Shown piece after piece: positions 23,810-33,778 of a stretch of DNA of 64,000 nucleotides. A model generated the notes under the pieces. That model was given only the letters and a program-made list of their open reading frames with translations, ran no database searches and was not told the origin of the DNA. The stretch comes from an uncultured Bacteroidota bacterium (GTDB lineage Bacteria > Bacteroidota > Bacteroidia > Flavobacteriales > Flavobacteriaceae): positions 2,536-66,535 of the forward strand of contig CAIOTL010000063.1 of the NCBI GenBank assembly GCA_903861155.1, read 5' to 3'. Positions within the stretch are counted from its first letter, which is position 1, and each line of letters begins with the position of its first letter. The position numbers and the translations under genes are program-made.

Positions 23810-24511
23810 TCAATGACAATTAGGAGTCGTTTGTATGAACAAACTCGTATTTGAAGGAGAAACATAGGGAATTCCCAATCCTAAACCTCTCAAAATAAAT
23901 AATACTCCAATAATTACCCCTATGTAAGGAATGGCTTTTTGGATTTTATTTCGAATCGAAATGGTCAAAAAAGAATTGAGATATACCACGGCACTCATCA
24001 TTGGGACAGTTCCCAACCCAAACAAAATCATATACAAAACGCCAAGACTTTCGCTTTGCATTGCAATGGCCCCAAACAAGGCAACATAAACCATTCCGCA
24101 AGGTAAAAATCCGTTGAGCAAACCGATGGTGAATAGTGATTTATAACTCTTGTTTTTAAATTGGCTTCCTAAAGTTGATTTGATCTTGGAAATTAGTTTA
24201 AAAACTGATTTTGAGAAGTTGTAATTGGCAAAAATTCTCTCAGGAACCAAAATCACGGTAATCATCGCAACACCAATAAATAGTGATAGTTTTTGTTGTA
24301 TTCCGGCAAGAAAAAATCCTTTACCAACCAATCCGAAGACCAATCCAATTGACGCATATGCAGATAATCTGCCTAGATGATACGTGATGATTTGTGTCGT
24401 TTTCTTTGCGGGATTTGTTCTGTCCACCGGCAACATCAAAGCAATAGGTCCGCACATTCCGATGCAGTGAAAACTACTGATTAATCCGAAGATGAAAGCT
24501 GTGTAAAGCAT
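23810..24511 (-). CDS. TauE/SafE (DsbD_2-like) membrane protein, cbb3 accessory
   Basis: HCIGMCGPI, YHLGR, GFLPCGMVY, FGLGTVPM. Confidence 0.88.
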   Translation of the reverse strand: MLYTAFIFGLISSFHCIGMCGPIALMLPVDRTNPAKKTTQIITYHLGRLSAYASIGLVFGLVGKGFFLAGIQQKLSLFIGVAMITVILVPERIFANYNFSKSVFKLISKIKSTLGSQFKNKSYKSLFTIGLLNGFLPCGMVYVALFGAIAMQSESLGVLYMILFGLGTVPMMSAVVYLNSFLTISIRNKIQKAIPYIGVIIGVLFILRGLGLGIPYVSPSNTSLFIQTTPNCH

Positions 24512-24573
24512 TTTAGATTGCAGATTTTAGATTGCAGATTTTAGATTTTAGATTTTAGATTTTAGATTTTAAG
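24511..24573. repeat. Heptamer tandem array (TTTTAGA/TTGCAGA) x8 plus a partial unit
   Basis: Direct reading; on the coding strand (TCTAAAA)n runs into the ATG. Confidence 0.95.
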
Positions 24574-24594
24574 CAAATCAATTATCTACCCTCT

Positions 24595-25044
24595 TTAATT
24601 TATATAAACAGTTTCCTTTGTAAGATATTGTTTTCCATTATATTGCCACTCCATATTAATTTCCCATCGACCGTCTAACAACCTGTTTTTAGGAACGAGC
24701 AAAGAGGAACCAGAAAGTGCAATTGGCACGTCAAAATCTAGTTTTTCGCTTGATGATCTGTAAAAAGATACTTTCCCTTTGATGTTTTTTGGAACATAAA
24801 CTTCTGGAAATATAATCGTAATTCCTTCTGCAGTATCTGTTATTACAGGTTTTTGAGCTAGATCCTGAGCACTTTGAATCCTCACCATTTCATCTCCAAA
24901 TTTCGCATCGTGTTTGTAATATTCGTCAACAACCAATTCATTGTCGTATTTTGAATCCGATTGGACTTTAATAACAAAATATAAAATAAAAGTCATAAAC
25001 AATGCAAAAGCAATTACGATTCCTGTTCCCCAATTAATTTTCAT
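24595..25044 (-). CDS. ccoH: FixH/CcoH family protein
   Basis: MKINWGTGIVIAF..F, ELV.DEYYK; position in the cco operon; start set at ATG 25044. Confidence 0.85.
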   Translation of the reverse strand: MKINWGTGIVIAFALFMTFILYFVIKVQSDSKYDNELVVDEYYKHDAKFGDEMVRIQSAQDLAQKPVITDTAEGITIIFPEVYVPKNIKGKVSFYRSSSEKLDFDVPIALSGSSLLVPKNRLLDGRWEINMEWQYNGKQYLTKETVYIN

Positions 25045-25078
25045 AACAATGTATTTTTTAATAATAAAACTTAGAAAT

Positions 25079-26497
25079 CTAATCAAAACTTTGTGGGCTC
25101 AAAAAACTTGTAGTTGTAGTTTCAATTTTTTTATTCCCATTATAGACCTCAACTTCTATTTTTGTTTTATCGTGTTCTAATAAATATTGATGGATTTCAA
25201 TGAACAAAGTTCCTTGAGCCATTGTTTGTTTTTTTACTTTAAAATCTTGTTTTCCAACAACATTTATTTTTCCTTTTATTCCGTGTAATTTGAAATGTAT
25301 GTCATTAAAATCATTATTCGTTTTATTGATAATTTTGAATGTGAAAATATTGCTAATATCATCGCCTTTGTGCTCATACAATTGTCCAGGTAATCTAAAA
25401 ATAGTTGCCTCAACTTCTGTACGGATAAACAATAATCCGATTAATATTCCAACAAGAATCAACAATACGGAGCTATATCCTTTCATCCTGGCCGTGAATT
25501 TGAATCCAATATTCTTCTCGATTTCATCTTCTGACGCATAACGAATAAGTCCTTTTGGTAAACCTACACCTTCCATAATAGTGTCGCATTCGTCTACGCA
25601 TGCGGTGCAATTAATGCATTCTAATTGCGTTCCGTTTCGAATATCAATTCCTGTTGGACAAACGTTGACACATTGTTTACAATCAATGCAATCACCTTTT
25701 CCGGACGTAGCTCTATCTTCTTGTTTATTGAACTTGGCTCTGCCATATTCCTTTTCGCCTCGAACAAAATCATAGGCAACATTTATTGATTTATCGTCCA
25801 ATAAAACTCCTTGTAATCTTCCATAAGGACAAGCAATAATGCAAACCTGTTCTCTGAACCAAGCAAAAATAAAATAGAAAATACCAGTGAATATAGATAG
25901 TGAAATCAAGGTGCTACCTTGATTTTCGGGTCCTTCCTCAATCATTCGGATCAATTCGTCGCTTCCTATAAGATAAGCAAGGAAAATATTGGCGATAAAA
26001 AATGAAATCACTAAAAAAACAAACCATTTTAAGCCTTTCTTCCTGATTTTTTCGGTATTCCATTCTTGCTTGGATAATCTAATTTGGGCGCCACGATCGC
26101 CTTCTATCCAAAATTCTATTCTTCGAAAAACCATTTCGAGAAATATGGTTTGGGGACAAATCCATCCGCAAAATATGCGTCCGAAAATCACGGTAAAAAG
26201 AATGACAAAAACCACTCCAACAATCATAAAAAGAACAAAAAGGTAGAAATCTTGTGGCCAAAATGGAAATCCAAAAATATTAAATCGACGTTCTAAAACG
26301 TTGAACATCATAAACTGGTTACCATTAATCTTTATGAACGGATTTGCAACCAAAATTATCAATAAAAAATAGCTTACCCACTTCCTGTAGTCATAAAACC
26401 TGCCGGAAGGTTTTTTTGGAAAAATGAATTTCCTATTCCCCGCTTCATCAATTGTACCTATGGTATCTCTAAAAGCTTCGTCTGGAATTTTTGGCAT
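25079..26497 (-). CDS. ccoG: cbb3 oxidase accessory protein CcoG/FixG
   Basis: CGWICPQT, CIIACPYGRLQ, two ferredoxin motifs CIDCKQCVNVCPTGIDIR and CINCTACVDEC. Confidence 0.95.
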   Translation of the reverse strand: MPKIPDEAFRDTIGTIDEAGNRKFIFPKKPSGRFYDYRKWVSYFLLIILVANPFIKINGNQFMMFNVLERRFNIFGFPFWPQDFYLFVLFMIVGVVFVILFTVIFGRIFCGWICPQTIFLEMVFRRIEFWIEGDRGAQIRLSKQEWNTEKIRKKGLKWFVFLVISFFIANIFLAYLIGSDELIRMIEEGPENQGSTLISLSIFTGIFYFIFAWFREQVCIIACPYGRLQGVLLDDKSINVAYDFVRGEKEYGRAKFNKQEDRATSGKGDCIDCKQCVNVCPTGIDIRNGTQLECINCTACVDECDTIMEGVGLPKGLIRYASEDEIEKNIGFKFTARMKGYSSVLLILVGILIGLLFIRTEVEATIFRLPGQLYEHKGDDISNIFTFKIINKTNNDFNDIHFKLHGIKGKINVVGKQDFKVKKQTMAQGTLFIEIHQYLLEHDKTKIEVEVYNGNKKIETTTTSFLSPQSFD

Positions 26498-26521: not shown

Positions 26522-26555
26522 AATCTTTGCCAAGTTTGTAGACTTGGCAAAGATT
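26522..26555. terminator. 14-bp hairpin between ccoP and ccoG (attenuator, terminator or stabiliser)
   Basis: AATCTTTGCCAAGT-TTGTAG-ACTTGGCAAAGATT. Confidence 0.65.
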
Positions 26556-26593: not shown

Positions 26594-27898
26594 TTATTTC
26601 TTAACTGAACCTACCCAAACATCACCTTCAGGTGCTTTCGGGTTCGGTGGATTAGTTCCTTGCAATGACAAAACATAACTTGCAACCAGTTGAATGTCTT
26701 TTGGCTTCATTCCGCTTTTAGACCAAGCAACCATTCCTTTCCCTTCACGCCCCCCGTTTGTAATTGTGTTGACAACATTCTTAATCCCTCCACCCAAAAT
26801 CCAACGATTATCCGTCAAATTTGGACCTATCAGTCCACCAGCATCTGGTCTGTGACAGGCAACACAAGTTGTCATAAAAATTTTCTTACCCGCAGCTAAA
26901 TCTGCTGGACTAGTCAACAATACAACATTGTTTTCAGAAACAGTAACATCTGTTTTTGTAGCAGTCTCGGTAGTCTCTGTTTTGGTCTCAACCACTGCAT
27001 CAACTTTTTTAGGAGATCCTGAATCAGTCCAAACTTCTCCTTCTGGAGCTTTCGGATTCACGGGATTACTTCCTTGCAACGACAATACATAACTCGCAAC
27101 AAGTTGAATATCTTTAGGCTTCATACCACTTTTTGACCAAGCAATCATACCTTTTCCGTCACGACCACCATTGGTAATGGTGTGGAAAACATTTTTAATA
27201 CCACCTCCCAAAATCCATCTATCATCCGTTAAATTAGGGCCGATTAGTCCTCCTGCATCGGGTCTGTGACAGGCAACACAATTAGTCATGAAAATTTTCT
27301 TTCCCGTAGCTAAATCAGCAGGACTGGTCAATAAAGTAACGGTTTTTTCATCCATTAAATCAGGAGCGGTTTTTTTATAATTGGCAATATCAATTTGGGC
27401 TTGAGCCATTTCTTTTTTCAATTCCATTTCTTGATTATCTCCGCCCATGACTTCAAATCGAACAAGGTAAACCACTGCAAAAATGATGCAACCATAGAAC
27501 AAGTAAACCCACCATGGTGGCAAACTGTTGTCTAATTCCTTAATTCCGTCATAATCGTGATCCAACAATAATTGTCCTTCGTTTTCTATTGGTTCTGATT
27601 TTGTCAAAGCTTTTATCAGTTTTTTGAACCATGCGCTTTCCTTATAGCTAACAGCACTAGTTTCCTCTAATTTTGCTTTTTGTTCTTCAGTAAGCAATTG
27701 ATACGTGATGGTATCTACTGCATTTACAGTGATTTCAATTGCTATTAAAAGGAAAAGAAATACAAATAAAAAGAGGGAAACCATTGGGAATTTTACGAAA
27801 GCTGGTTGATTTCCAGAGTCAATAAAATATTCCATTGTTCCAAAAACAGCGAAGAAAATGATTATTATTCTTAAATATGCTGGGATTAATTTTTTCAT
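26594..27898 (-). CDS. ccoP: cbb3-type cytochrome c oxidase subunit III with two tandem cytochrome c domains
   Basis: HDYDGIKELDNSLPPWW (FixP N-terminus) and two CVACH heme motifs. Confidence 0.93.
   Translation of the reverse strand: MKKLIPAYLRIIIIFFAVFGTMEYFIDSGNQPAFVKFPMVSLFLFVFLFLLIAIEITVNAVDTITYQLLTEEQKAKLEETSAVSYKESAWFKKLIKALTKSEPIENEGQLLLDHDYDGIKELDNSLPPWWVYLFYGCIIFAVVYLVRFEVMGGDNQEMELKKEMAQAQIDIANYKKTAPDLMDEKTVTLLTSPADLATGKKIFMTNCVACHRPDAGGLIGPNLTDDRWILGGGIKNVFHTITNGGRDGKGMIAWSKSGMKPKDIQLVASYVLSLQGSNPVNPKAPEGEVWTDSGSPKKVDAVVETKTETTETATKTDVTVSENNVVLLTSPADLAAGKKIFMTTCVACHRPDAGGLIGPNLTDNRWILGGGIKNVVNTITNGGREGKGMVAWSKSGMKPKDIQLVASYVLSLQGTNPPNPKAPEGDVWVGSVKK
26615..27340 (-). repeat. Internal domain duplication in ccoP (27029-27340 and 26615-26926)
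   Basis: Two 104-aa copies with 11 differences by manual alignment. Confidence 0.95.
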
Positions 27899-27926: not shown

Positions 27927-28097
27927 TCAATTATCGTTCAAAGGAAGTTGGCTCATTTCGTCAATTTTTTCTTTTTTATACGAAAAAACCCAAACACCAA
28001 GTCCTACAAAAAAAACAAAGAAAATCAATAAAGCCGTTATTGGATAAGTCTCGATTCCTTCGATTGTTTCCAAATTGTGTTTGATTTGTTCGAACAT
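27927..28097 (-). CDS. ccoQ: cbb3-type oxidase subunit CcoQ (56 aa, not in ORF track)
   Basis: MFEQIKHNLETIEGIETYPITALLIFFVFFVGLGVWVFSYKKEKIDEMSQLPLNDN; single TM, located between ccoNO and ccoP. Confidence 0.85.
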   Translation of the reverse strand: MFEQIKHNLETIEGIETYPITALLIFFVFFVGLGVWVFSYKKEKIDEMSQLPLNDN

Positions 28098-28102
28098 AAT
28101 TA

Positions 28103-30292
28103 CTATTTATTAGAGTTATCTTTTACTTTAATATCGGTTCCCAATCGCTGGATATAAGCAATTAGCGCCACGATTTCTCTTTCGTTCATCGGAACAAATT
28201 TCTCGCCTCTAGCTTCTGCTTTTTTCTTGCTGTCACTATAACTTTTCACGAAGTCGGGATCATTTTTAAGGCTTTCCTCGATTTTCATTGCTTGCGCCCT
28301 CAAATCTTTTGGCCCATTTGCAATCTGTTCATTCGTATAAGGAACCCCAAGGGTTTGCATCGCTTTCATTTTCTTTTCTGTCAATGAAATATCCATTGGT
28401 TCATTGGCAAATAACCATTTATAAGACGGCATCAAAGAACCTGCCGAAATACTTTGCGGACTCCAGAAGTGGTTAAAATGCCAATTGTTATTGTATTTCC
28501 CCCCTTCCCTCTCTAAATCTGGACCAGTTCGTTTAGAACCCCAAAGGAAAGGGTGGTCATAAACAAACTCTCCAGCTTTGGCTTGTGGTCCATAACGTTC
28601 TACTTCGCTTCGAAAAGGACGAACAGATTGAGAGTGACAACCCACGCAACCTTCGCGAATATATAAATCGCGACCTTGTAATTCAAGTGGGGAATATGGT
28701 TTTACACTGGCAATTGTAGGGATATTTGATTTTATCATAATCGTTGGAACAATTTGAACGATTCCACCAATCAAGATGGCAATCACGGCAAAAATTGTCA
28801 ATTGAATTGGTTTTCTTTCTAACCAGGCGTGGTATTTTTCACCTTTGATTCTTCCCGCGCTAATTTTTACCAATGCTGGTGCTTCGGCTAATTCGTCTTC
28901 GATTGTAGAACCTGTCCTTACGGTTTGGATAATGTTATAAACCAATGTCAACATTCCTGTAAGGTAAAGCACGCCACCAAAAGCTCTCATCCAATACATT
29001 GGCATAATTTGAGTCACGGTTTCGAGGAAATTTCCATATGTCAAGGTTCCATCAGGATTGAATTGTTTCCACATAGAAGCCTGAGTAAATCCGGCAACAT
29101 ACATTGGAATCGTATAAAATATAATTCCCAAAGTTCCAATCCAGAAGTGAAAATTGGCTAATTTAATGGAATACAAAGTGCTTTTGGTCATCCTTGGTAT
29201 TAACCAATAAATAATACCAAATGACATAAATCCATTCCAGGCCAAAGCACCAACGTGAACATGGGCAATAATCCAATCCGTATAATGTGCGATGGCATTT
29301 ACGCTTTTAAGGGATAGCATTGGACCTTCGAAAGTTGCCATTCCGTAACCAGTAATTGCAACGACGAAGAATTTTAATACCGGATCAACACGCACTTTAT
29401 CCCAAACACCTCTTAAGGTCAATAATCCGTTTATCATTCCTCCCCAAGACGGTGCAATCAACATTATCGAAAATGCAACTCCTAAATTCTGCGCCCAGTT
29501 TGGTAATGCTGAATACAATAAATGGTGAGGTCCAGCCCAAATATATAAGAATATTAACGACCAAAAGTGAACAATTGACAATCGATACGAATAAACGGGA
29601 CGATTGGCAGCTTTTGGAACAAAATAATACATCAATCCCAAGAATGGCGTGGTCAAGAAAAAGGCAACCGCATTATGGCCATACCACCACTGCACCAAAG
29701 CATCCTGAACTCCTGCGTAAACTGAATAACTTTTCATAGCCGAAACTGGCAACTCCAAGCTGTTGAAAATATGTAAAACTGCCACGGTCACGAAAGTGGC
29801 AATGTAAAACCAAATCGCAACATATAAATGGCGTTCTCGTCTTTTGAGAATTGTACCAATCATATTGATCCCCATAACAACCCAAATTAATGCAATGGCA
29901 ATATCAATAGGCCATTCTAATTCAGCATATTCTTTTGAAGTGGTGTAACCTAAGGGCAACGAAACGGCTGCCGCAACAATAATTAACTGCCAACCCCAAA
30001 AATGAAGGTTACTTAAAAAATCATTATACATTCTTGCTTTAAGAAGACGCTGCAACGAATAATACATTCCTGCAAAAAAAGCATTTCCCACAAAGGCAAA
30101 AATTACTGCATTGGTATGTAAAGGTCTCAATCTACCATAGCTTAACCACGAAATTCCGTCGGTCATATTTGGGAAAAGAAACATCAAGGCCAAAACAAGC
30201 CCTACTAACATTCCCACAACACCGAAAACGATGGTTGCGAAAATGAATTTCTTTACAATTTTGTTGTCATAATAAAATTGTTGCATTTCCAT
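28103..30292 (-). CDS. ccoN: Fused cbb3-type cytochrome c oxidase subunits I/II (CcoNO)
   Basis: RLRPLHTN, QWWYGHN, WAGPHHL, HVHVG; C-terminal CcoO domain with EGCVGCH and WGSKRTGPDL. Confidence 0.97.
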   Translation of the reverse strand: MEMQQFYYDNKIVKKFIFATIVFGVVGMLVGLVLALMFLFPNMTDGISWLSYGRLRPLHTNAVIFAFVGNAFFAGMYYSLQRLLKARMYNDFLSNLHFWGWQLIIVAAAVSLPLGYTTSKEYAELEWPIDIAIALIWVVMGINMIGTILKRRERHLYVAIWFYIATFVTVAVLHIFNSLELPVSAMKSYSVYAGVQDALVQWWYGHNAVAFFLTTPFLGLMYYFVPKAANRPVYSYRLSIVHFWSLIFLYIWAGPHHLLYSALPNWAQNLGVAFSIMLIAPSWGGMINGLLTLRGVWDKVRVDPVLKFFVVAITGYGMATFEGPMLSLKSVNAIAHYTDWIIAHVHVGALAWNGFMSFGIIYWLIPRMTKSTLYSIKLANFHFWIGTLGIIFYTIPMYVAGFTQASMWKQFNPDGTLTYGNFLETVTQIMPMYWMRAFGGVLYLTGMLTLVYNIIQTVRTGSTIEDELAEAPALVKISAGRIKGEKYHAWLERKPIQLTIFAVIAILIGGIVQIVPTIMIKSNIPTIASVKPYSPLELQGRDLYIREGCVGCHSQSVRPFRSEVERYGPQAKAGEFVYDHPFLWGSKRTGPDLEREGGKYNNNWHFNHFWSPQSISAGSLMPSYKWLFANEPMDISLTEKKMKAMQTLGVPYTNEQIANGPKDLRAQAMKIEESLKNDPDFVKSYSDSKKKAEARGEKFVPMNEREIVALIAYIQRLGTDIKVKDNSNK

Positions 30293-30590: not shown

Positions 30591-32987
30591 CTATTTAACA
30601 ATTATAATCTTATTTAATCTTCGGGCATAAAAATTACTCATTACTGTTACAAAACTGACAATCGTGACCGTGCTCAAAGGCATAATGATTGCCGCAATTA
30701 ATGGCAAAAGGTTTCCCGTAATGGCAAATGATAGCCCCACAACATTATACAACAACGACAACATAAAACTCATTTTAATAGTCGCTATGGCTTTTTGGGA
30801 CAGTTTTAAGAAGTAATCCAACCTTTTAAATTCGCTTGCGTCAAGAATGGCGTCGCAAGCCGGCGAAAAAACATTCACGTTTTCCGAAATTGAAATCCCA
30901 ATGTTGCTTTGCGCCAAAGCCCCGGCATCGTTCAATCCATCGCCTACCATCATTACGTTTTTGCCTTCCAATTGCAATTTTTTGATGAATTCCAGTTTTT
31001 CTTCTGGTTTTTGATTGAAAATCAATTCGGTTCCCTTAGGCAAAATACTTTCCAAAGTTTCGCGTTCGCCTTCATTATCACCAGACAAAACTTTGATTTG
31101 ATAATTGGCATTTAATTTCTCTAAAAGTTCTCCTAATCCGTCTCTGTATTGATTATTGAAAATGTATTTTCCGAAATAAACCTCGTTAATTTTGATATGA
31201 ACTGAAGTTTGTTGAATGTTCTTCTCTTCTGATTTTCCAATGAAATCTGCCGAACCAACATGAACCAAGATTCCATCAATATCTGCTTGAATTCCTTTTC
31301 CAGTAATTTCTTGAAAATCGTCTAATTTAAATCGCTTACCTTCCGGCAAAAAATCATACAACATTCTGCTTAACGGATGATTCGAAGCACGAAGAACATT
31401 TCTTATAATTACCAAATTATCCTCCGGAATCATTATTCCTTCATAAGAAATATTCGATTTTTTATTTGTAGTAATCGTTCCTGTTTTATCGAAAACTATA
31501 GTATCCACTTTGGCCAATTGTTCTATGACCAAGGCATTTTTGAGATAGAATTTTTTCTTTCCCAAAATTCTCAAAATATTTCCAAAAGTAAATGGCGCCG
31601 TCAATGCCAATGCACACGGGCAAGCCACGATTAACACTGCCGTAAAAACATTGAAGGCGATATTGACGTCTATAAAAATCCAATAGCCAAATGCTCCAAA
31701 AGCAATCAGTAAAAGTATCGGCGTAAAATAACGGCTAATTTTGTCGGTAATGGTTTTATGTTTTTGCTCGACATTTTTCTGAAAAACGTCGTTGCTCCAT
31801 AATTGCGTCAAATAACTTTGGGAAACCGAGTACAAAACTTCCATTTCGATGACTTTCCCAATTTGTTTTCCGCCGGCAAAGACCTTGTCTCCTGATTTTT
31901 TGGTAATCGGAATGGCTTCACCGGTAACAAAACTATAGTCAATTTCGGCTTTTTCGGAAATTAAAATACCATCAACAGGAATCAATTCCTGGTTTCTGAT
32001 TAGTAATCTATCCCCTTTTTGAATGTCATAAATCGGCACACTTTCTTCAGAAGCATCACTGTTAATTCTGGTGATTGCAATTGGAAAATAAGACTTAAAA
32101 TCTCTTTCGAAACTCAAGAAACTATAGGTTTTTATTTGGAACATTTTACCCAAAAGCATAAAAAAAATCAAGCCAGTAAGGCTGTCAAAAAACCCGGATC
32201 CGTAGTCCATAAAAATATCGAAAGTACTTCGAACGAAGAAAATAATGATTCCCAATGCAATGGGAATATCGATATTCAACATTCCAGATTTGATGCTTTT
32301 ATAAGCAGAAAAGTAGTAATCGCTAGCCGAAAAGAAAAAACTTGGCAAAGCCAAAATAAAAATCAGCCAACGGAAAAATCCGCGATATTGGTCCAGCCAA
32401 AATTCCTTGACTTCGAAATATTCGGGAAATGAAAGCAACATAATATTACCGAAACAAAAGAATGCAACGCCCAGTTTGTAGGTCAAGCTCCTGTCGACAT
32501 TATTCTTGCCTGTTTCATAATTTTCTAAACTGATGTAAGGTTCATAACCAATGGAACTTAATAAATGAACAATAGTTTTGAGCGAAACAGTTTCCGGATT
32601 AAAGGTAATTCGGACTTTCTTTTCGGGAAAATTCACTTGTGAACTGCTTATTCCTTTCTGTAATTTTTGAAGATTTTCGAGAATCCAAATACACGAACTA
32701 CAGTGTATGTGCGGAATATTTAAGGAAACAATTGTCGTTGCATCACCTTGAAATTCCAAAAGTTTCGAAACGATACTTTCATTATCCAAGAAGTCATATT
32801 TGCCACTAATATCAAGCGGAGTTATCCCAGGAGATTTTTCGAAATCATAATAACAAGTCAAATCATTAAGACTAAAAATTTCGTACACGGTTTTGCAACC
32901 ATTGCAACAAAATTGCTTTTCGTCAAAAATTATTTGCTCCTCTTTTATAATGTCCAAGCCACAATGGAAACAGTTTTGGGCATCCAT
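30591..32987 (-). CDS. ccoI: Heavy-metal (Cu) translocating P1B ATPase CcoI/FixI
   Basis: CFHC..CCNGC, HCSSC, TGEA, CPC, DKTGT, MVGDGLNDA. Confidence 0.93.
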   Translation of the reverse strand: MDAQNCFHCGLDIIKEEQIIFDEKQFCCNGCKTVYEIFSLNDLTCYYDFEKSPGITPLDISGKYDFLDNESIVSKLLEFQGDATTIVSLNIPHIHCSSCIWILENLQKLQKGISSSQVNFPEKKVRITFNPETVSLKTIVHLLSSIGYEPYISLENYETGKNNVDRSLTYKLGVAFFCFGNIMLLSFPEYFEVKEFWLDQYRGFFRWLIFILALPSFFFSASDYYFSAYKSIKSGMLNIDIPIALGIIIFFVRSTFDIFMDYGSGFFDSLTGLIFFMLLGKMFQIKTYSFLSFERDFKSYFPIAITRINSDASEESVPIYDIQKGDRLLIRNQELIPVDGILISEKAEIDYSFVTGEAIPITKKSGDKVFAGGKQIGKVIEMEVLYSVSQSYLTQLWSNDVFQKNVEQKHKTITDKISRYFTPILLLIAFGAFGYWIFIDVNIAFNVFTAVLIVACPCALALTAPFTFGNILRILGKKKFYLKNALVIEQLAKVDTIVFDKTGTITTNKKSNISYEGIMIPEDNLVIIRNVLRASNHPLSRMLYDFLPEGKRFKLDDFQEITGKGIQADIDGILVHVGSADFIGKSEEKNIQQTSVHIKINEVYFGKYIFNNQYRDGLGELLEKLNANYQIKVLSGDNEGERETLESILPKGTELIFNQKPEEKLEFIKKLQLEGKNVMMVGDGLNDAGALAQSNIGISISENVNVFSPACDAILDASEFKRLDYFLKLSQKAIATIKMSFMLSLLYNVVGLSFAITGNLLPLIAAIIMPLSTVTIVSFVTVMSNFYARRLNKIIIVK

Positions 32988-33036
32988 AAGTTCTCTCCTT
33001 TTATGGTGACAAATTTACTAACTGAACAAATTAAAA

Positions 33037-33054
33037 ATATGATAATTATCATAT
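33037..33054. promoter_or_regulatory. FNR-like palindrome between divergent ccoI and the Crp/Fnr gene
   Basis: Perfect ATATGAT-AATT-ATCATAT; -7 boxes on both sides (minus 33010-33017; plus 33054-33061 and 33062-33069). Confidence 0.8.
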
Positions 33055-33097
33055 AAATTTGTAGATTTGCATAAACTCAATCAATATTTTCTTTTTT

Positions 33098-33778
33098 ATG
33101 GGCAAATGTGAACAATGTATCGTGAGAGAATTCAGTTCTCTGAAAGCACTTAATAAGGAAGAACTAACCAGAATTGCCGAATGCAAAACTTCATATTCCA
33201 TCAAAAAAGGCGAACATATTTTTGAAGAAGGAGAAAGCATTAACGGGATATATTGCGTGAAAGGTGGAGTCTGCAAACTCTCCAAATTAAGCGCAAACGG
33301 AAAAGACCAAATTGTAAAGTTAGTTAAATCAGGAGAATTACTCGGCCAACGTTCTATGATTAGTGGTGAACCCGCCAATTTAAGCGCTGTGGCGCTTGAA
33401 GATATGGAAGTTTGTTTTATTCCCCGAAGTGAAGTGGTGGATTTGTTTGACAAAAACAACCAGTTTTCGATGAACCTAATGAAAACTATTTGTGGTGATT
33501 TAAAAGAAGTGAGTGACCACGTTGTTTCAATGTCCCAAAAAACAGTAAAAGAAAGATTAGCAGAAACACTTGTTTACCTCCATGAAACTTTCGGAAAAAA
33601 CGAGGATGGTTCGTTACGCATTCAGCTTTCTAGAGAAGAATTGGCAGGAATGATCGGAACAGCTACCGAAAGCTGCATCCGTTTATTATCCGATTTTAAT
33701 AAATTAGGTTTTATAGAATTAGCTGGTAAAAAAATTGTTGTTAAAGATATTGGCAAACTTAAACGAATTGCCGATTAA
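33098..33778 (+). CDS. Crp/Fnr family transcriptional regulator (FNR-like)
   Basis: N-terminal CEQC plus further Cys, cNMP-binding fold, C-terminal HTH SREELAGMIGTATESCIR. Confidence 0.92.
   Translation: MGKCEQCIVREFSSLKALNKEELTRIAECKTSYSIKKGEHIFEEGESINGIYCVKGGVCKLSKLSANGKDQIVKLVKSGELLGQRSMISGEPANLSAVALEDMEVCFIPRSEVVDLFDKNNQFSMNLMKTICGDLKEVSDHVVSMSQKTVKERLAETLVYLHETFGKNEDGSLRIQLSREELAGMIGTATESCIRLLSDFNKLGFIELAGKKIVVKDIGKLKRIAD

What the first reader, a model, noticed from the sequence alone, without database searches (positions are those of the whole stretch)
26615..27340. CcoP with a tandem-duplicated heme c domain: possible independent origin of a diheme CcoP
Seen: two 104-aa domains, each with CVACH and a GM(I/V)AW Met ligand, 93/104 identical and joined by a Thr/Glu/Lys-rich linker. 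By eye most synonymous positions differ, indicating an old duplication under strong purifying selection rather than an assembly artefact. Established: proteobacterial CcoP is diheme with two divergent domains; from recall, Flavobacterium CcoP is usually about 300 aa with one heme. Inference: convergent re-creation of a longer electron wire, or two docking sites for an electron donor.
Basis: partly seen in the sequence, partly recalled or inferred. Interest (0 to 1): 0.65.

Follow-up and report, generated by a model that had tools for sequence, protein, structure and literature searches.

The report
Flavobacterium CcoP with duplicated heme domain
An uncultured lake Flavobacterium carries a real, fairly old tandem copy of the single heme-binding domain in one subunit (CcoP) of its high-affinity cbb3 oxidase; the extra heme domain hangs on a flexible tether, and similar domain gains have happened several separate times in related bacteria.

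Summary
The ORF at 26594-27898 (-) encodes a 434-aa CcoP: a FixP_N domain followed by two class-I cytochrome c domains (aa 186-291 and 324-429). Each domain has CVACH and a GKGM(I/V)AW methionine. The copies are 88% identical in protein and 81% in DNA, with dS about 1.2 and dN/dS about 0.06.

It is not an assembly artefact. Two other assemblies from two lake metagenomes reproduce it base for base.

All 80 nearest Flavobacterium genomes encode a one-heme CcoP of 294-325 aa. Both copies nest inside the freshwater Flavobacterium clade, so this origin is independent of the proteobacterial diheme CcoP.

Divergence is asymmetric. Copy 1 has barely changed, copy 2 carries about 10 replacements, and silent changes are symmetric.

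The 32-aa Thr/Glu/Lys-rich linker sits where the orthologues have their C-terminal tail and is predicted disordered.

The case is not unique. At least four other Bacteroidota-type CcoP lineages gained a distal heme domain separately, and one protein has three. All four diverged distal-domain groups, the window's copy 2 among them, replaced the same conserved Phe.

The most likely function, inferred only, is a tethered distal electron-entry or shuttle domain. I rate it a new variant of a known kind, of moderate interest.

The parts
26594..27898 (-). ccoP (fixP), 434 aa: cbb3 oxidase subunit III with an N-terminal extension, FixP_N, two heme c domains and a short tail
   Evidence: ORF; Pfam PF14715, 2x PF13442 and PF00034; best PDB matches are CcoP chains 6XKX/6XKW/8SNH/3MK7
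27569..27898 (-). Bacteroidota-type N-terminal extension (aa 1-110), with predicted helices 7-25 and 38-68
   Evidence: AF2 secondary structure; conserved in the 311-313-aa Flavobacterium orthologues
27443..27568 (-). FixP_N domain (aa 111-152), including the membrane anchor helix 129-150
   Evidence: PF14715, E=1.4e-20; AF2 helices
27026..27343 (-). Heme c domain copy 1 (aa 186-291), the near-unchanged ancestral (proximal) domain. CVACH lies at 27266-27280, the Met251 codon at 27146-27148 and the Phe238 codon at 27185-27187
   Evidence: 91-92% aa identity to orthologues L003 and P0003; only 1-2 unique amino-acid changes
26930..27025 (-). Linker (aa 292-323), DSGSPKKVDAVVETKTETTETATKTDVTVSEN. 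It occupies the position of the orthologues' C-terminal tail and is predicted disordered
   Evidence: ortholog tails; pLDDT below 50 for residues 295-321; homology to the tails is by position only, because the alignment score is no better than shuffles
26612..26929 (-). Heme c domain copy 2 (aa 324-429), the faster-evolving distal domain. CVACH lies at 26852-26866, the Met389 codon at 26732-26734 and Val376 (replacing the conserved Phe) at 26771-26773
   Evidence: 10-11 unique amino-acid changes, several at sites invariant in 115-118 of 118 close orthologues
26594..26611 (-). Shortened C-terminal tail of copy 2 (GSVKK) plus the stop codon
   Evidence: orthologues end ...VWVD(about 20 aa)VKK, whereas copy 2 ends VWVGSVKK
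27927..30292 (-). ccoQ (27927-28097) and the fused ccoNO gene (28103-30292), immediately upstream in the same operon
   Evidence: PF05545 FixQ; PF00115 COX1 plus PF02433 FixO
23810..26497 (-). Downstream cbb3 maturation genes: ccoG/fixG (25079-26497), fixH (24595-25086) and a DsbD_2 protein (23810-24511)
   Evidence: Pfam; the same gene order occurs in related loci
30591..33778 (.). ccoI/fixI P-type ATPase (30591-32987, -) and a divergent Crp/Fnr-type regulator (33098-33778, +)
   Evidence: Pfam

Best explanation
This is the CcoP (FixP) subunit of an otherwise ordinary Flavobacterium cbb3-type cytochrome c oxidase operon (ccoI-ccoS-ccoNO-ccoQ-ccoP-ccoG-fixH). The 3' part of the gene, encoding the single class-I cytochrome c domain, was duplicated in tandem within this lineage.

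Shown:
- The duplication is real.
- It is about as old, in silent-site divergence, as the split from the nearest sampled species.
- Both copies keep the CxxCH heme-attachment motif and the methionine ligand motif.
- Both copies are under purifying selection.
- Copy 1 has stayed almost identical to the ancestral domain. A crude three-point estimate gives omega about 0.01 on its branch.
- Copy 2 has taken about 10 amino-acid replacements (omega about 0.1), some at sites otherwise invariant in the genus.
- The copies are joined by a low-complexity segment that is predicted disordered and sits where the orthologues have their C-terminal tail.

Inferred:
- Copy 1 keeps the ancestral job. It sits on CcoO/CcoN and passes electrons to the CcoO heme.
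- Copy 2 is a second, periplasmic heme c on a roughly 32-residue flexible tether. It acts as a distal electron-entry or shuttle domain: it accepts electrons from the upstream donor (in Flavobacteria alternative complex III or a small cytochrome c) and hands them to copy 1.
- That makes it a built-in tethered cytochrome c. It would be comparable to the distal heme of proteobacterial CcoP, to membrane-anchored cytochrome cy, and to the engineered CcoP-cy fusion.

I put the probability that the structural and evolutionary description is right at about 0.9, and the probability that the tethered entry/shuttle role is right at about 0.45. The single confidence value given here (0.6) is a compromise between the two.
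For: Independent assemblies are identical: L001 is an exact substring of the window, an X1 contig covers 26554-27918 with 0 differences, and X2 unitigs tile both copies and the linker. The monoheme state is the norm: 80/80 genomes, the top 120 database hits are all 296-325 aa, and among all long-N CcoPs collected 358 are monoheme, 25 diheme and 1 triheme. Copy 2's closest domain among 342 is copy 1, at 89% against at most 85% for any other. The (c1,c2) sister grouping has 62-74% bootstrap support in amino-acid, first-plus-second-position and all-position trees. GC3 is 0.31 in copy 1, 0.32 in copy 2 and 0.29 in the N-terminal part, against 0.19-0.21 in several orthologues. The relative-rate test gives 1-2 unique amino-acid changes in copy 1 against 10-11 in copy 2 (p=0.006-0.04), while third positions are symmetric at 13-18 against 18-23. 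The AF2 model folds both domains at pLDDT about 75-95, leaves linker residues 295-321 below 50, and has pTM 0.40. The best PDB sequence match is the engineered R. capsulatus CcoP-cytochrome cy fusion (6XKX); that construct supported quinol:O2 turnover without any added carrier (PMC7876108). The same architecture, with 18-41-aa Thr/Ser/Glu/Ala-rich linkers, recurs in independently derived di-domain CcoPs. A Phe conserved in 90% of 112 proximal or monoheme domains is replaced in the distal domain of 4 of 4 diverged groups.
Against: There is no biochemical evidence that either heme is attached or that copy 2 transfers electrons. The sister relation of the copies is only moderately supported. It falls to 32% when many near-identical orthologues are added and to 16% on third positions alone. 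The silent divergence between the copies (pS 0.59) slightly exceeds that between the window and its nearest orthologues (0.40-0.52). The duplication may therefore predate that split, with loss in the relatives. The AF2 inter-domain geometry is uninformative at pTM 0.40, so a packed cytochrome c4-like pair is not excluded. Homology between the linker and the ancestral tail could not be shown by alignment. Read depth in the supporting metagenomes is low, about 3-6x.
Confidence: 0.6

Rival explanations
1. Assembly artefact or strain chimera: two ccoP 3' ends from co-occurring Flavobacterium strains were joined by the assembler, and no real gene has two domains.
For: The window comes from a metagenome-type assembly. 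Depth in the supporting runs is low, about 3-6x. A monoheme relative (P0003) occurs in the same sampling project.
Against: Three assemblies made separately give the identical sequence through both copies and the linker: the window itself, a 1440-bp ENA scaffold from a named sample, and Logan contigs from two different samples. One X2 unitig spans the linker and both junctions. The copies are only 81% identical in DNA, so repeat collapse or mis-joining is unlikely. The join is in frame. The two copies share the same GC3, and it differs from that of several relatives. Copy 2 matches no sampled monoheme gene better than it matches copy 1.
Confidence: 0.03
2. Copy 2 did not arise by in-situ duplication. 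It was captured from another, unsampled Flavobacterium lineage by recombination into the 3' end of ccoP.
For: Silent-site distance between the copies (pS 0.59) is as large as between species. On third positions alone, copy 2 pairs with L003 more often than with copy 1: 36% against 16% of bootstraps.
Against: At the amino-acid level and at first and second codon positions, copy 2 is closest to copy 1: dN 0.065 against at least 0.081 to any orthologue. The two copies share Lys16 of the domain, which is among the rarest states in 118 close orthologues. GC3 of copy 2 equals that of the host gene. Third positions are near saturation and carry little signal.
Confidence: 0.08
3. The duplication is real, but the two domains pack into a fixed cytochrome c4-like diheme unit. 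That would be a rigid, longer electron wire, as in proteobacterial CcoP, rather than a mobile tethered carrier.
For: Proteobacterial CcoP has two packed heme domains, and its distal heme is the proposed entry point for soluble cytochrome c2 (PMC7876108). The window protein aligns to both domains of those CcoPs. A 32-residue linker is long enough to wrap around a packed pair.
Against: The linker is low-complexity and predicted disordered. In the older independent di-domain lineages the linkers stay low-complexity and vary in length (18-41 aa) and in sequence, which is not the behaviour of a structured connector. AF2 gives no confident inter-domain contact, with pTM 0.40.
Confidence: 0.3
4. Copy 2 diverts electrons away from oxygen reduction to another periplasmic acceptor, as the third heme domain of Neisseria CcoP does towards nitrite reductase.
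For: There is precedent in Neisseria gonorrhoeae (PMC2924362; PMC8552683). Copy 2 shows altered constraint at several otherwise invariant surface or core positions.
Against: No nitrite reductase or other candidate acceptor gene lies in the parts of the 64-kb window that I annotated. The rest of the genome was not available. Copy 2 remains 88% identical to copy 1, so a new partner specificity is not evident.
Confidence: 0.1

Closest known systems
Monoheme CcoP of Flavobacterium and other Flavobacteriaceae (cbb3 oxidase subunit III, FixP_N plus one Cytochrome_CBB3 domain, about 295-325 aa)
   Same: It has the same operon, the same N-terminal extension and FixP_N domain, and 82-89% identity over the shared part. 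Copy 1 is 91-92% identical to the single domain of the nearest orthologues.
   Different: The window protein has a second complete heme domain after what is the C-terminal tail in the orthologues. None of the 80 genomes, and none of the top 120 database relatives, has this.
Proteobacterial diheme CcoP/FixP (for example Pseudomonas stutzeri 3MK7 chain C and Rhodobacter capsulatus 6XKW chain p)
   Same: It combines a FixP_N anchor with two class-I heme c domains in series. It is encoded after ccoQ in the cbb3 operon and matches at E=1e-25 to 1e-32. The predicted logic is the same: a distal entry heme feeding a proximal heme that feeds CcoO (PMC7876108).
   Different: The origin is independent. 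The window's two domains are 88% identical to each other and nest inside the Flavobacterium monoheme clade. It also has a long N-terminal extension with extra helices, a fused CcoNO partner, and a disordered low-complexity linker.
Tri-heme CcoP of Neisseria
   Same: An extra C-terminal heme c domain is added to CcoP through a low-complexity linker. The addition is lineage-specific and has a physiological role (PMC2924362).
   Different: The Neisseria domain was captured from cytochrome c5 by recombination and channels electrons to nitrite reductase. Here the extra domain is a copy of CcoP's own domain, and no such acceptor is known.
Membrane-tethered cytochrome cy and the engineered R. capsulatus CcoP-cy fusion (PDB 6XKX/6XKZ)
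   Same: A cytochrome c domain hangs on a long flexible linker at the C-terminus of CcoP. 6XKX is the best PDB sequence match. The engineered fusion carried electrons from complex III to cbb3 without any soluble carrier (PMC7876108).
   Different: That protein is man-made, its linker is 69 residues against 32 here, and its added domain is unrelated to CcoP's own domains.
Other rare di- and tri-domain Bacteroidota-type CcoPs from metagenomes (P0127-P0130, P0348, P0371; P0170, P0189, P0206, P0480; P0199, P0202, P0201)
   Same: The architecture is the same, with a long N-terminus, FixP_N and 2-3 heme domains joined by 18-41-aa Thr/Ser/Glu/Ala-rich linkers (only 9-11 aa in the three-heme P0480), and the operon is the same where it could be seen. 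They show the same loss of the conserved Phe in the distal domain.
   Different: These are separate duplication events: their distal domains form clades of their own and are only 44-69% identical to their proximal domains. The window's copy pair is the youngest credible example.

Membership tests
CcoP/FixP, subunit III of cbb3-type cytochrome c oxidase | N-terminal FixP_N domain with a membrane anchor | tested here: met
   PF14715, 73 bits against a cut-off of 24.9, at aa 111-152; AF2 helix at 129-150
CcoP/FixP, subunit III of cbb3-type cytochrome c oxidase | At least one periplasmic class-I cytochrome c domain with CxxCH and a distal Met | tested here: met
   Two PF13442/PF00034 stretches; CVACH at aa 207 and 345; GKGM(I/V)AW at aa 248 and 386
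CcoP/FixP, subunit III of cbb3-type cytochrome c oxidase | Encoded in a ccoN-ccoO-ccoQ-ccoP cluster with the ccoGHIS maturation genes | tested here: met
   CcoNO fusion, FixQ, FixG, FixH, DsbD_2 and the P-type ATPase flank it on the same strand
CcoP/FixP, subunit III of cbb3-type cytochrome c oxidase | Covalent heme attachment and assembly with CcoN/CcoO | not testable with these tools
   This needs heme staining, mass spectrometry or purification of the complex
Canonical (proteobacterial-type) diheme CcoP | The two heme domains are orthologous to the two old, divergent domains of proteobacterial CcoP | tested here: not met
   Copy 2 is 89% identical to copy 1, and both nest in the Flavobacterium monoheme clade
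Canonical (proteobacterial-type) diheme CcoP | Short N-terminus with FixP_N starting near residue 15-30 | tested here: not met
   FixP_N starts at residue 111; short-N forms make up a separate set among the representatives
Neisseria-type extended CcoP (domain captured from another cytochrome) | The extra C-terminal domain is most similar to a separate cytochrome gene (c5) | tested here: not met
   The extra domain's closest relative among 342 domains is CcoP's own copy 1. Caveat: those domains come almost entirely from CcoP homologues, so free-standing cytochromes were hardly sampled
Tethered cytochrome c carriers (cytochrome cy type) | Cytochrome c domain on a long flexible linker | tested here: met
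   By prediction only: pLDDT is below 50 for residues 295-321 and 85% of linker residues are T/S/E/A/K/P/D/G/Q/N
Tethered cytochrome c carriers (cytochrome cy type) | The domain moves between the donor complex and the oxidase and carries electrons | not testable with these tools
   This needs kinetics, cross-linking or cryo-EM

The most novel reading that the evidence does not exclude
Bacteroidota-type cbb3 oxidases repeatedly build their own tethered cytochrome c by duplicating CcoP's single heme domain, going from mono- to di- to tri-heme. Each time, the new distal domain drops the same conserved Phe and becomes a mobile shuttle that wires alternative complex III directly to the oxidase. This would make soluble carriers dispensable. 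The window gene would be the youngest snapshot of that process.
Probability: 0.3. Interest if true: 0.55.

Novelty: new variant of a known kind. Interest (0 to 1): 0.4.

Why it matters
CcoP is usually described as a diheme subunit, with Neisseria's triheme form treated as the oddity. The one-heme Bacteroidota form and its electron donor have been little studied.

This gene is a natural intermediate. It shows how a diheme CcoP can arise from a monoheme one by an internal tandem duplication. It also shows which copy keeps the old role and which sites change first.

Together with the other rare di- and tri-domain forms found here, it suggests that adding tethered heme domains to cbb3 oxidase is a recurrent, selectable solution. 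It also supplies concrete constructs for testing how electrons reach cbb3 in organisms that use alternative complex III: truncation after residue 291, and Phe238/Val376 swaps.

The finding does not reveal a new kind of system.

Tried and rejected
1. Assembly artefact or chimera: rejected. The sequence is identical in separate assemblies from two samples.

2. Foreign origin of copy 2: disfavoured by nearest-neighbour analysis, dN and GC3. Third positions are too saturated to settle it.

3. Showing by alignment that the linker derives from the ancestral tail: the local alignment scores are no better than composition-preserving shuffles (24-213 of 500 shuffles reach the observed score). That claim therefore rests on position and composition only.

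4. A proteobacterial parallel for the Phe pattern: in R. capsulatus CcoP the position is Tyr in domain 1 and Thr in domain 2, but Pseudomonas domain 1 has Glu. The parallel is not general and was dropped.

5. Taxonomy of the other di-domain proteins: two cluster look-ups returned no organism names. The P0127-P0130 group could be placed only by its nearest named relatives, which are marine Flavobacteriaceae such as Winogradskyella, Mangrovimonas and Tamlana.

6. P0126, a 98% identical repeat, sits on a 5.5-kb contig with fragmented cco genes and no ccoNO. I treated it as unreliable and did not count it as evidence.

7. The ccoP-ccoG spacer (96 nt here) was checked as a possible remnant of a truncated tail. 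Spacers of 94-418 nt are common in the closest relatives, so it is unremarkable.

8. Literature searches of the held library found no paper describing monoheme or duplicated CcoP in Bacteroidota. I recall that Ducluzeau et al. 2008 noted lineage differences in CcoP, but I could not check this.
Full report
**What is there.** The finding lies inside one ORF, window 26594-27898 on the minus strand, 434 aa. Pfam finds a FixP_N domain at aa 111-152 and two Cytochrome_CBB3/Cytochrom_C stretches. The heme-attachment motif CVACH occurs at residues 207 and 345, exactly 138 residues apart. Copy 1 is aa 186-291 (window 27026-27343). The linker DSGSPKKVDAVVETKTETTETATKTDVTVSEN is aa 292-323 (26930-27025). 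Copy 2 is aa 324-429 (26612-26929). A five-residue tail and the stop codon follow.

The neighbours on the same strand are:
- the fused ccoNO gene (28103-30292);
- ccoQ (27927-28097);
- ccoG (25079-26497);
- fixH (24595-25086);
- a DsbD_2 protein (23810-24511);
- the ccoI ATPase (30591-32987).

A divergent Crp/Fnr-type regulator lies at 33098-33778. This is the standard Flavobacterium cbb3 oxidase cluster in ordinary chromosomal surroundings.

**Check of the observation.** The copies align without gaps. They share 93 of 106 residues and are 81% identical in DNA. Identity is 92% and 94% at first and second codon positions but only 57% at third positions. Nei-Gojobori estimates are pS 0.59-0.60, dS about 1.2, dN 0.065-0.073 and dN/dS about 0.06.

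**Is it real?** The exact protein is also encoded on a 1440-bp scaffold of a separate ENA metagenome assembly. That scaffold is an exact substring of the window. Logan assemblies of two different lake-water samples also carry it. In run X1, one 1365-bp contig covers 26554-27918 with no differences. In run X2, short unitigs tile both copies with no differences, and one 247-bp unitig (26924-27170) crosses the whole linker and both junctions. The copies are only 81% identical, so a repeat-induced mis-assembly is unlikely. Depth is low (about 3-6x) and no long reads were available, but I consider an artefact very unlikely.

**How unusual is it?** A scan of one genome per species returned 80 Flavobacterium-type loci. 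All 80 encode a CcoP of 294-325 aa with a single CxxCH. The top 120 relatives in the 5.8-billion-protein collection are all 296-325 aa. The window's own 90% cluster holds it as the only 434-aa member among 312-aa proteins, seen on two contigs. The orthologues end in a tail of about 20-25 residues rich in Thr, Ala and Lys (...VWVD-PSAPKT...DSTxVKK). In the window protein the linker occupies exactly that position, while copy 2 ends in a shortened VWVGSVKK. I read the linker as the retained ancestral tail. This rests on position and composition only, because alignment scores are no better than shuffles.

**Origin and age.** Among 342 domains, copy 2's nearest relative is copy 1 (89%), followed by the orthologue P0003 (85%). 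Copy 1 is as close or closer to eight monoheme orthologues (up to 92%) than to copy 2. In a 14-sequence set, the two copies are sisters in 74% of amino-acid bootstraps, 62% of first-plus-second-position bootstraps and 65% of all-position bootstraps. On third positions alone the figure is only 16%. In a large domain tree both copies sit inside the freshwater Flavobacterium clade. GC3 is 0.31 in copy 1, 0.32 in copy 2 and 0.29 in the N-terminal part, against 0.19-0.21 in several orthologues. That fits long residence of both copies in one genome.

Silent divergence between the copies (pS 0.59) is equal to or slightly above that between the window and its nearest sampled species (0.40-0.52). The duplication is therefore about as old as this species-level lineage. 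It may be somewhat older, in which case the relatives lost the second copy. No sampled relative shares it.

**Asymmetric fate of the copies.** I polarised the differences against 118 close orthologues. About 10 are derived in copy 2 and 1 is derived in copy 1. Copy 2 has changed sites that are invariant or nearly so in the genus: F238 to V, H239 to N, D247 to E, N206 to T and I252 to V, in copy-1 numbering. Relative-rate tests with five outgroups give 1-2 unique amino-acid changes in copy 1 against 10-11 in copy 2 (p=0.006-0.04). Third-position changes are symmetric, at 13-18 against 18-23. A crude three-point estimate from the distances to L003 puts omega near 0.01 on the copy-1 branch and near 0.1 on the copy-2 branch. 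Both copies are constrained, but copy 1 looks like the keeper of the ancestral role, and copy 2 is under weaker or different constraint.

**The wider pattern.** I searched with the two-domain segment alone, so that two-domain proteins rank first. This recovered other CcoPs with the long Bacteroidota-type N-terminus and two heme domains:
- P0127, P0128, P0129, P0130, P0348 and P0371, whose domains are 65-69% identical to each other. Their nearest named relatives are marine Flavobacteriaceae with monoheme CcoP.
- P0170, P0189, P0206, P0208 and P0222, whose domains are 44-50% identical.
- P0199, P0202 and P0201, at 45-61%.
- P0480, a 519-aa protein with three heme domains.

Where the context could be read, these proteins sit in the same operon. 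All are rare, with 1-4 members per cluster. Across everything collected, long-N CcoPs divide into 358 with one heme, 25 with two and 1 with three, although two of the four searches favoured multi-domain hits.

In the domain tree the distal domains of these groups form separate clades, and the window pair forms its own. That implies at least four independent gains besides the window's. Apart from P0480, whose two linkers are only 9-11 aa, all have linkers of 18-41 residues that are 71-100% Thr/Ser/Glu/Ala/Lys/Pro/Asp/Gly/Gln/Asn and differ in sequence and length.

One column stands out. The Phe at window residue 238 is present in 90% of 112 proximal or monoheme domains. It is replaced, mostly by aliphatic residues, in the distal domains of all four diverged groups, including the window's copy 2. 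A similar contrast exists in R. capsulatus CcoP but not in Pseudomonas, so I do not extend the pattern to Proteobacteria.

**Structure.** An AlphaFold2 model built on a 49-sequence alignment folds both heme domains with pLDDT of about 75-95. It leaves residues 295-321 of the linker below 50. With pTM 0.40 it gives no confident arrangement of one domain relative to the other.

**Mechanism.** Established knowledge of cbb3 oxidases is that CcoP receives electrons from a periplasmic or tethered cytochrome c and passes them through the CcoO heme to heme b and the b3-CuB site. In R. capsulatus, soluble c2 is proposed to deliver to the distal CcoP heme and tethered cytochrome cy to the proximal one (PMC7876108).

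My best-supported reading is as follows. Copy 1 remains the proximal heme on CcoO/CcoN. Copy 2 is a second heme on a flexible tether that serves as a distal entry point or a short-range shuttle. The best sequence match among solved structures is the engineered R. capsulatus CcoP-cytochrome cy fusion (6XKX). Its authors report that it supports quinol-to-oxygen turnover without added carrier, so the design is workable. This part is inference.

Two alternatives remain open:
- A fixed cytochrome c4-like pair, that is, a rigid longer wire.
- Diversion of electrons to another acceptor, as in Neisseria, where the third CcoP heme domain came from cytochrome c5 and feeds nitrite reductase (PMC2924362). 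I found no candidate acceptor in the annotated parts of the window.

**Comparison and novelty.** The protein is a member of the CcoP/FixP family on every feature I could test. It is not a member of the canonical proteobacterial diheme type, because its second domain has a separate, recent origin and its N-terminus differs. It is not of the Neisseria type either, because the extra domain is a copy of CcoP's own domain. I found no description of duplicated CcoP heme domains in Bacteroidota in the held literature. The Neisseria paper states that all other CcoPs annotated at that time were diheme.

Variation in heme-domain number and duplication of cytochrome c domains are familiar themes, so I rate this a new variant of a known kind. 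Its interest is moderate. It is a clean, young example of a recurrent evolutionary route, and it comes with a convergent residue change that can be tested.

Noticed in passing
P0480 (protein; sequence): This is a 519-aa Bacteroidota-type CcoP with three CxxCH domains. Domains 2 and 3 are 65% identical, so a further duplication has occurred on top of an older two-domain form.
   Followed up: partly
L082:1476-2750 (P0126): This CcoP has a 98% identical tandem repeat of the heme domain plus its upstream helix. Its 5.5-kb JGI contig has fragmented cco genes and lacks ccoNO. It may be a very recent duplication or a poor assembly.
   Followed up: partly
L083, L084, L085 (P0128, P0129) and P0127, P0130, P0348, P0371: These form a second, older two-domain CcoP clade (domains 65-69% identical) in uncultured relatives of marine Flavobacteriaceae. 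The full ccoI-ccoS-ccoNO-ccoQ-ccoP-ccoG-fixH operon is present. Their proximal domains are interspersed with monoheme genera in the tree, which hints either at loss of the second domain in some lineages or at poor resolution.
   Followed up: partly
Window residue F238 (27185-27187) and V376 (26771-26773); column 53 of the domain alignment: A Phe conserved in 90% of 112 proximal or monoheme domains is replaced in the distal domains of four independently derived groups. This looks like a convergent change and may mark a contact or role specific to the proximal domain.
   Followed up: partly
C-terminal tails of CcoP in L002-L081; window linker 26930-27025: In 56 of 80 Flavobacterium CcoP tails there is a D-[ST]-[AILVMT] motif, usually in ...D[ST]TxVKK. 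As far as I know this is the Bacteroidota O-glycosylation sequon. The window's linker has none; the only match in the whole protein is at residue 62.
   Followed up: no
window 26523-26554: A perfect 13-bp inverted repeat (ATCTTTGCCAAGT / ACTTGGCAAAGAT, 6-nt loop) lies in the 96-nt ccoP-ccoG spacer. The terminator scan did not call it. Spacer length at this position ranges from 3 to 418 nt among relatives.
   Followed up: partly
L086:680-1150: In the P0170 locus a separate 156-aa cytochrome c gene and a PDZ-protease gene sit between ccoS and ccoNO. This is an extra candidate electron carrier next to a two-domain CcoP.
   Followed up: no
window 26658-27057 in run X4: A contig from a related organism in run X4 aligns partly to the end of copy 1 and partly to the end of copy 2, and was reported as a joint. 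This is what a monoheme orthologue would produce, and it is not evidence for a deletion variant.
   Followed up: no
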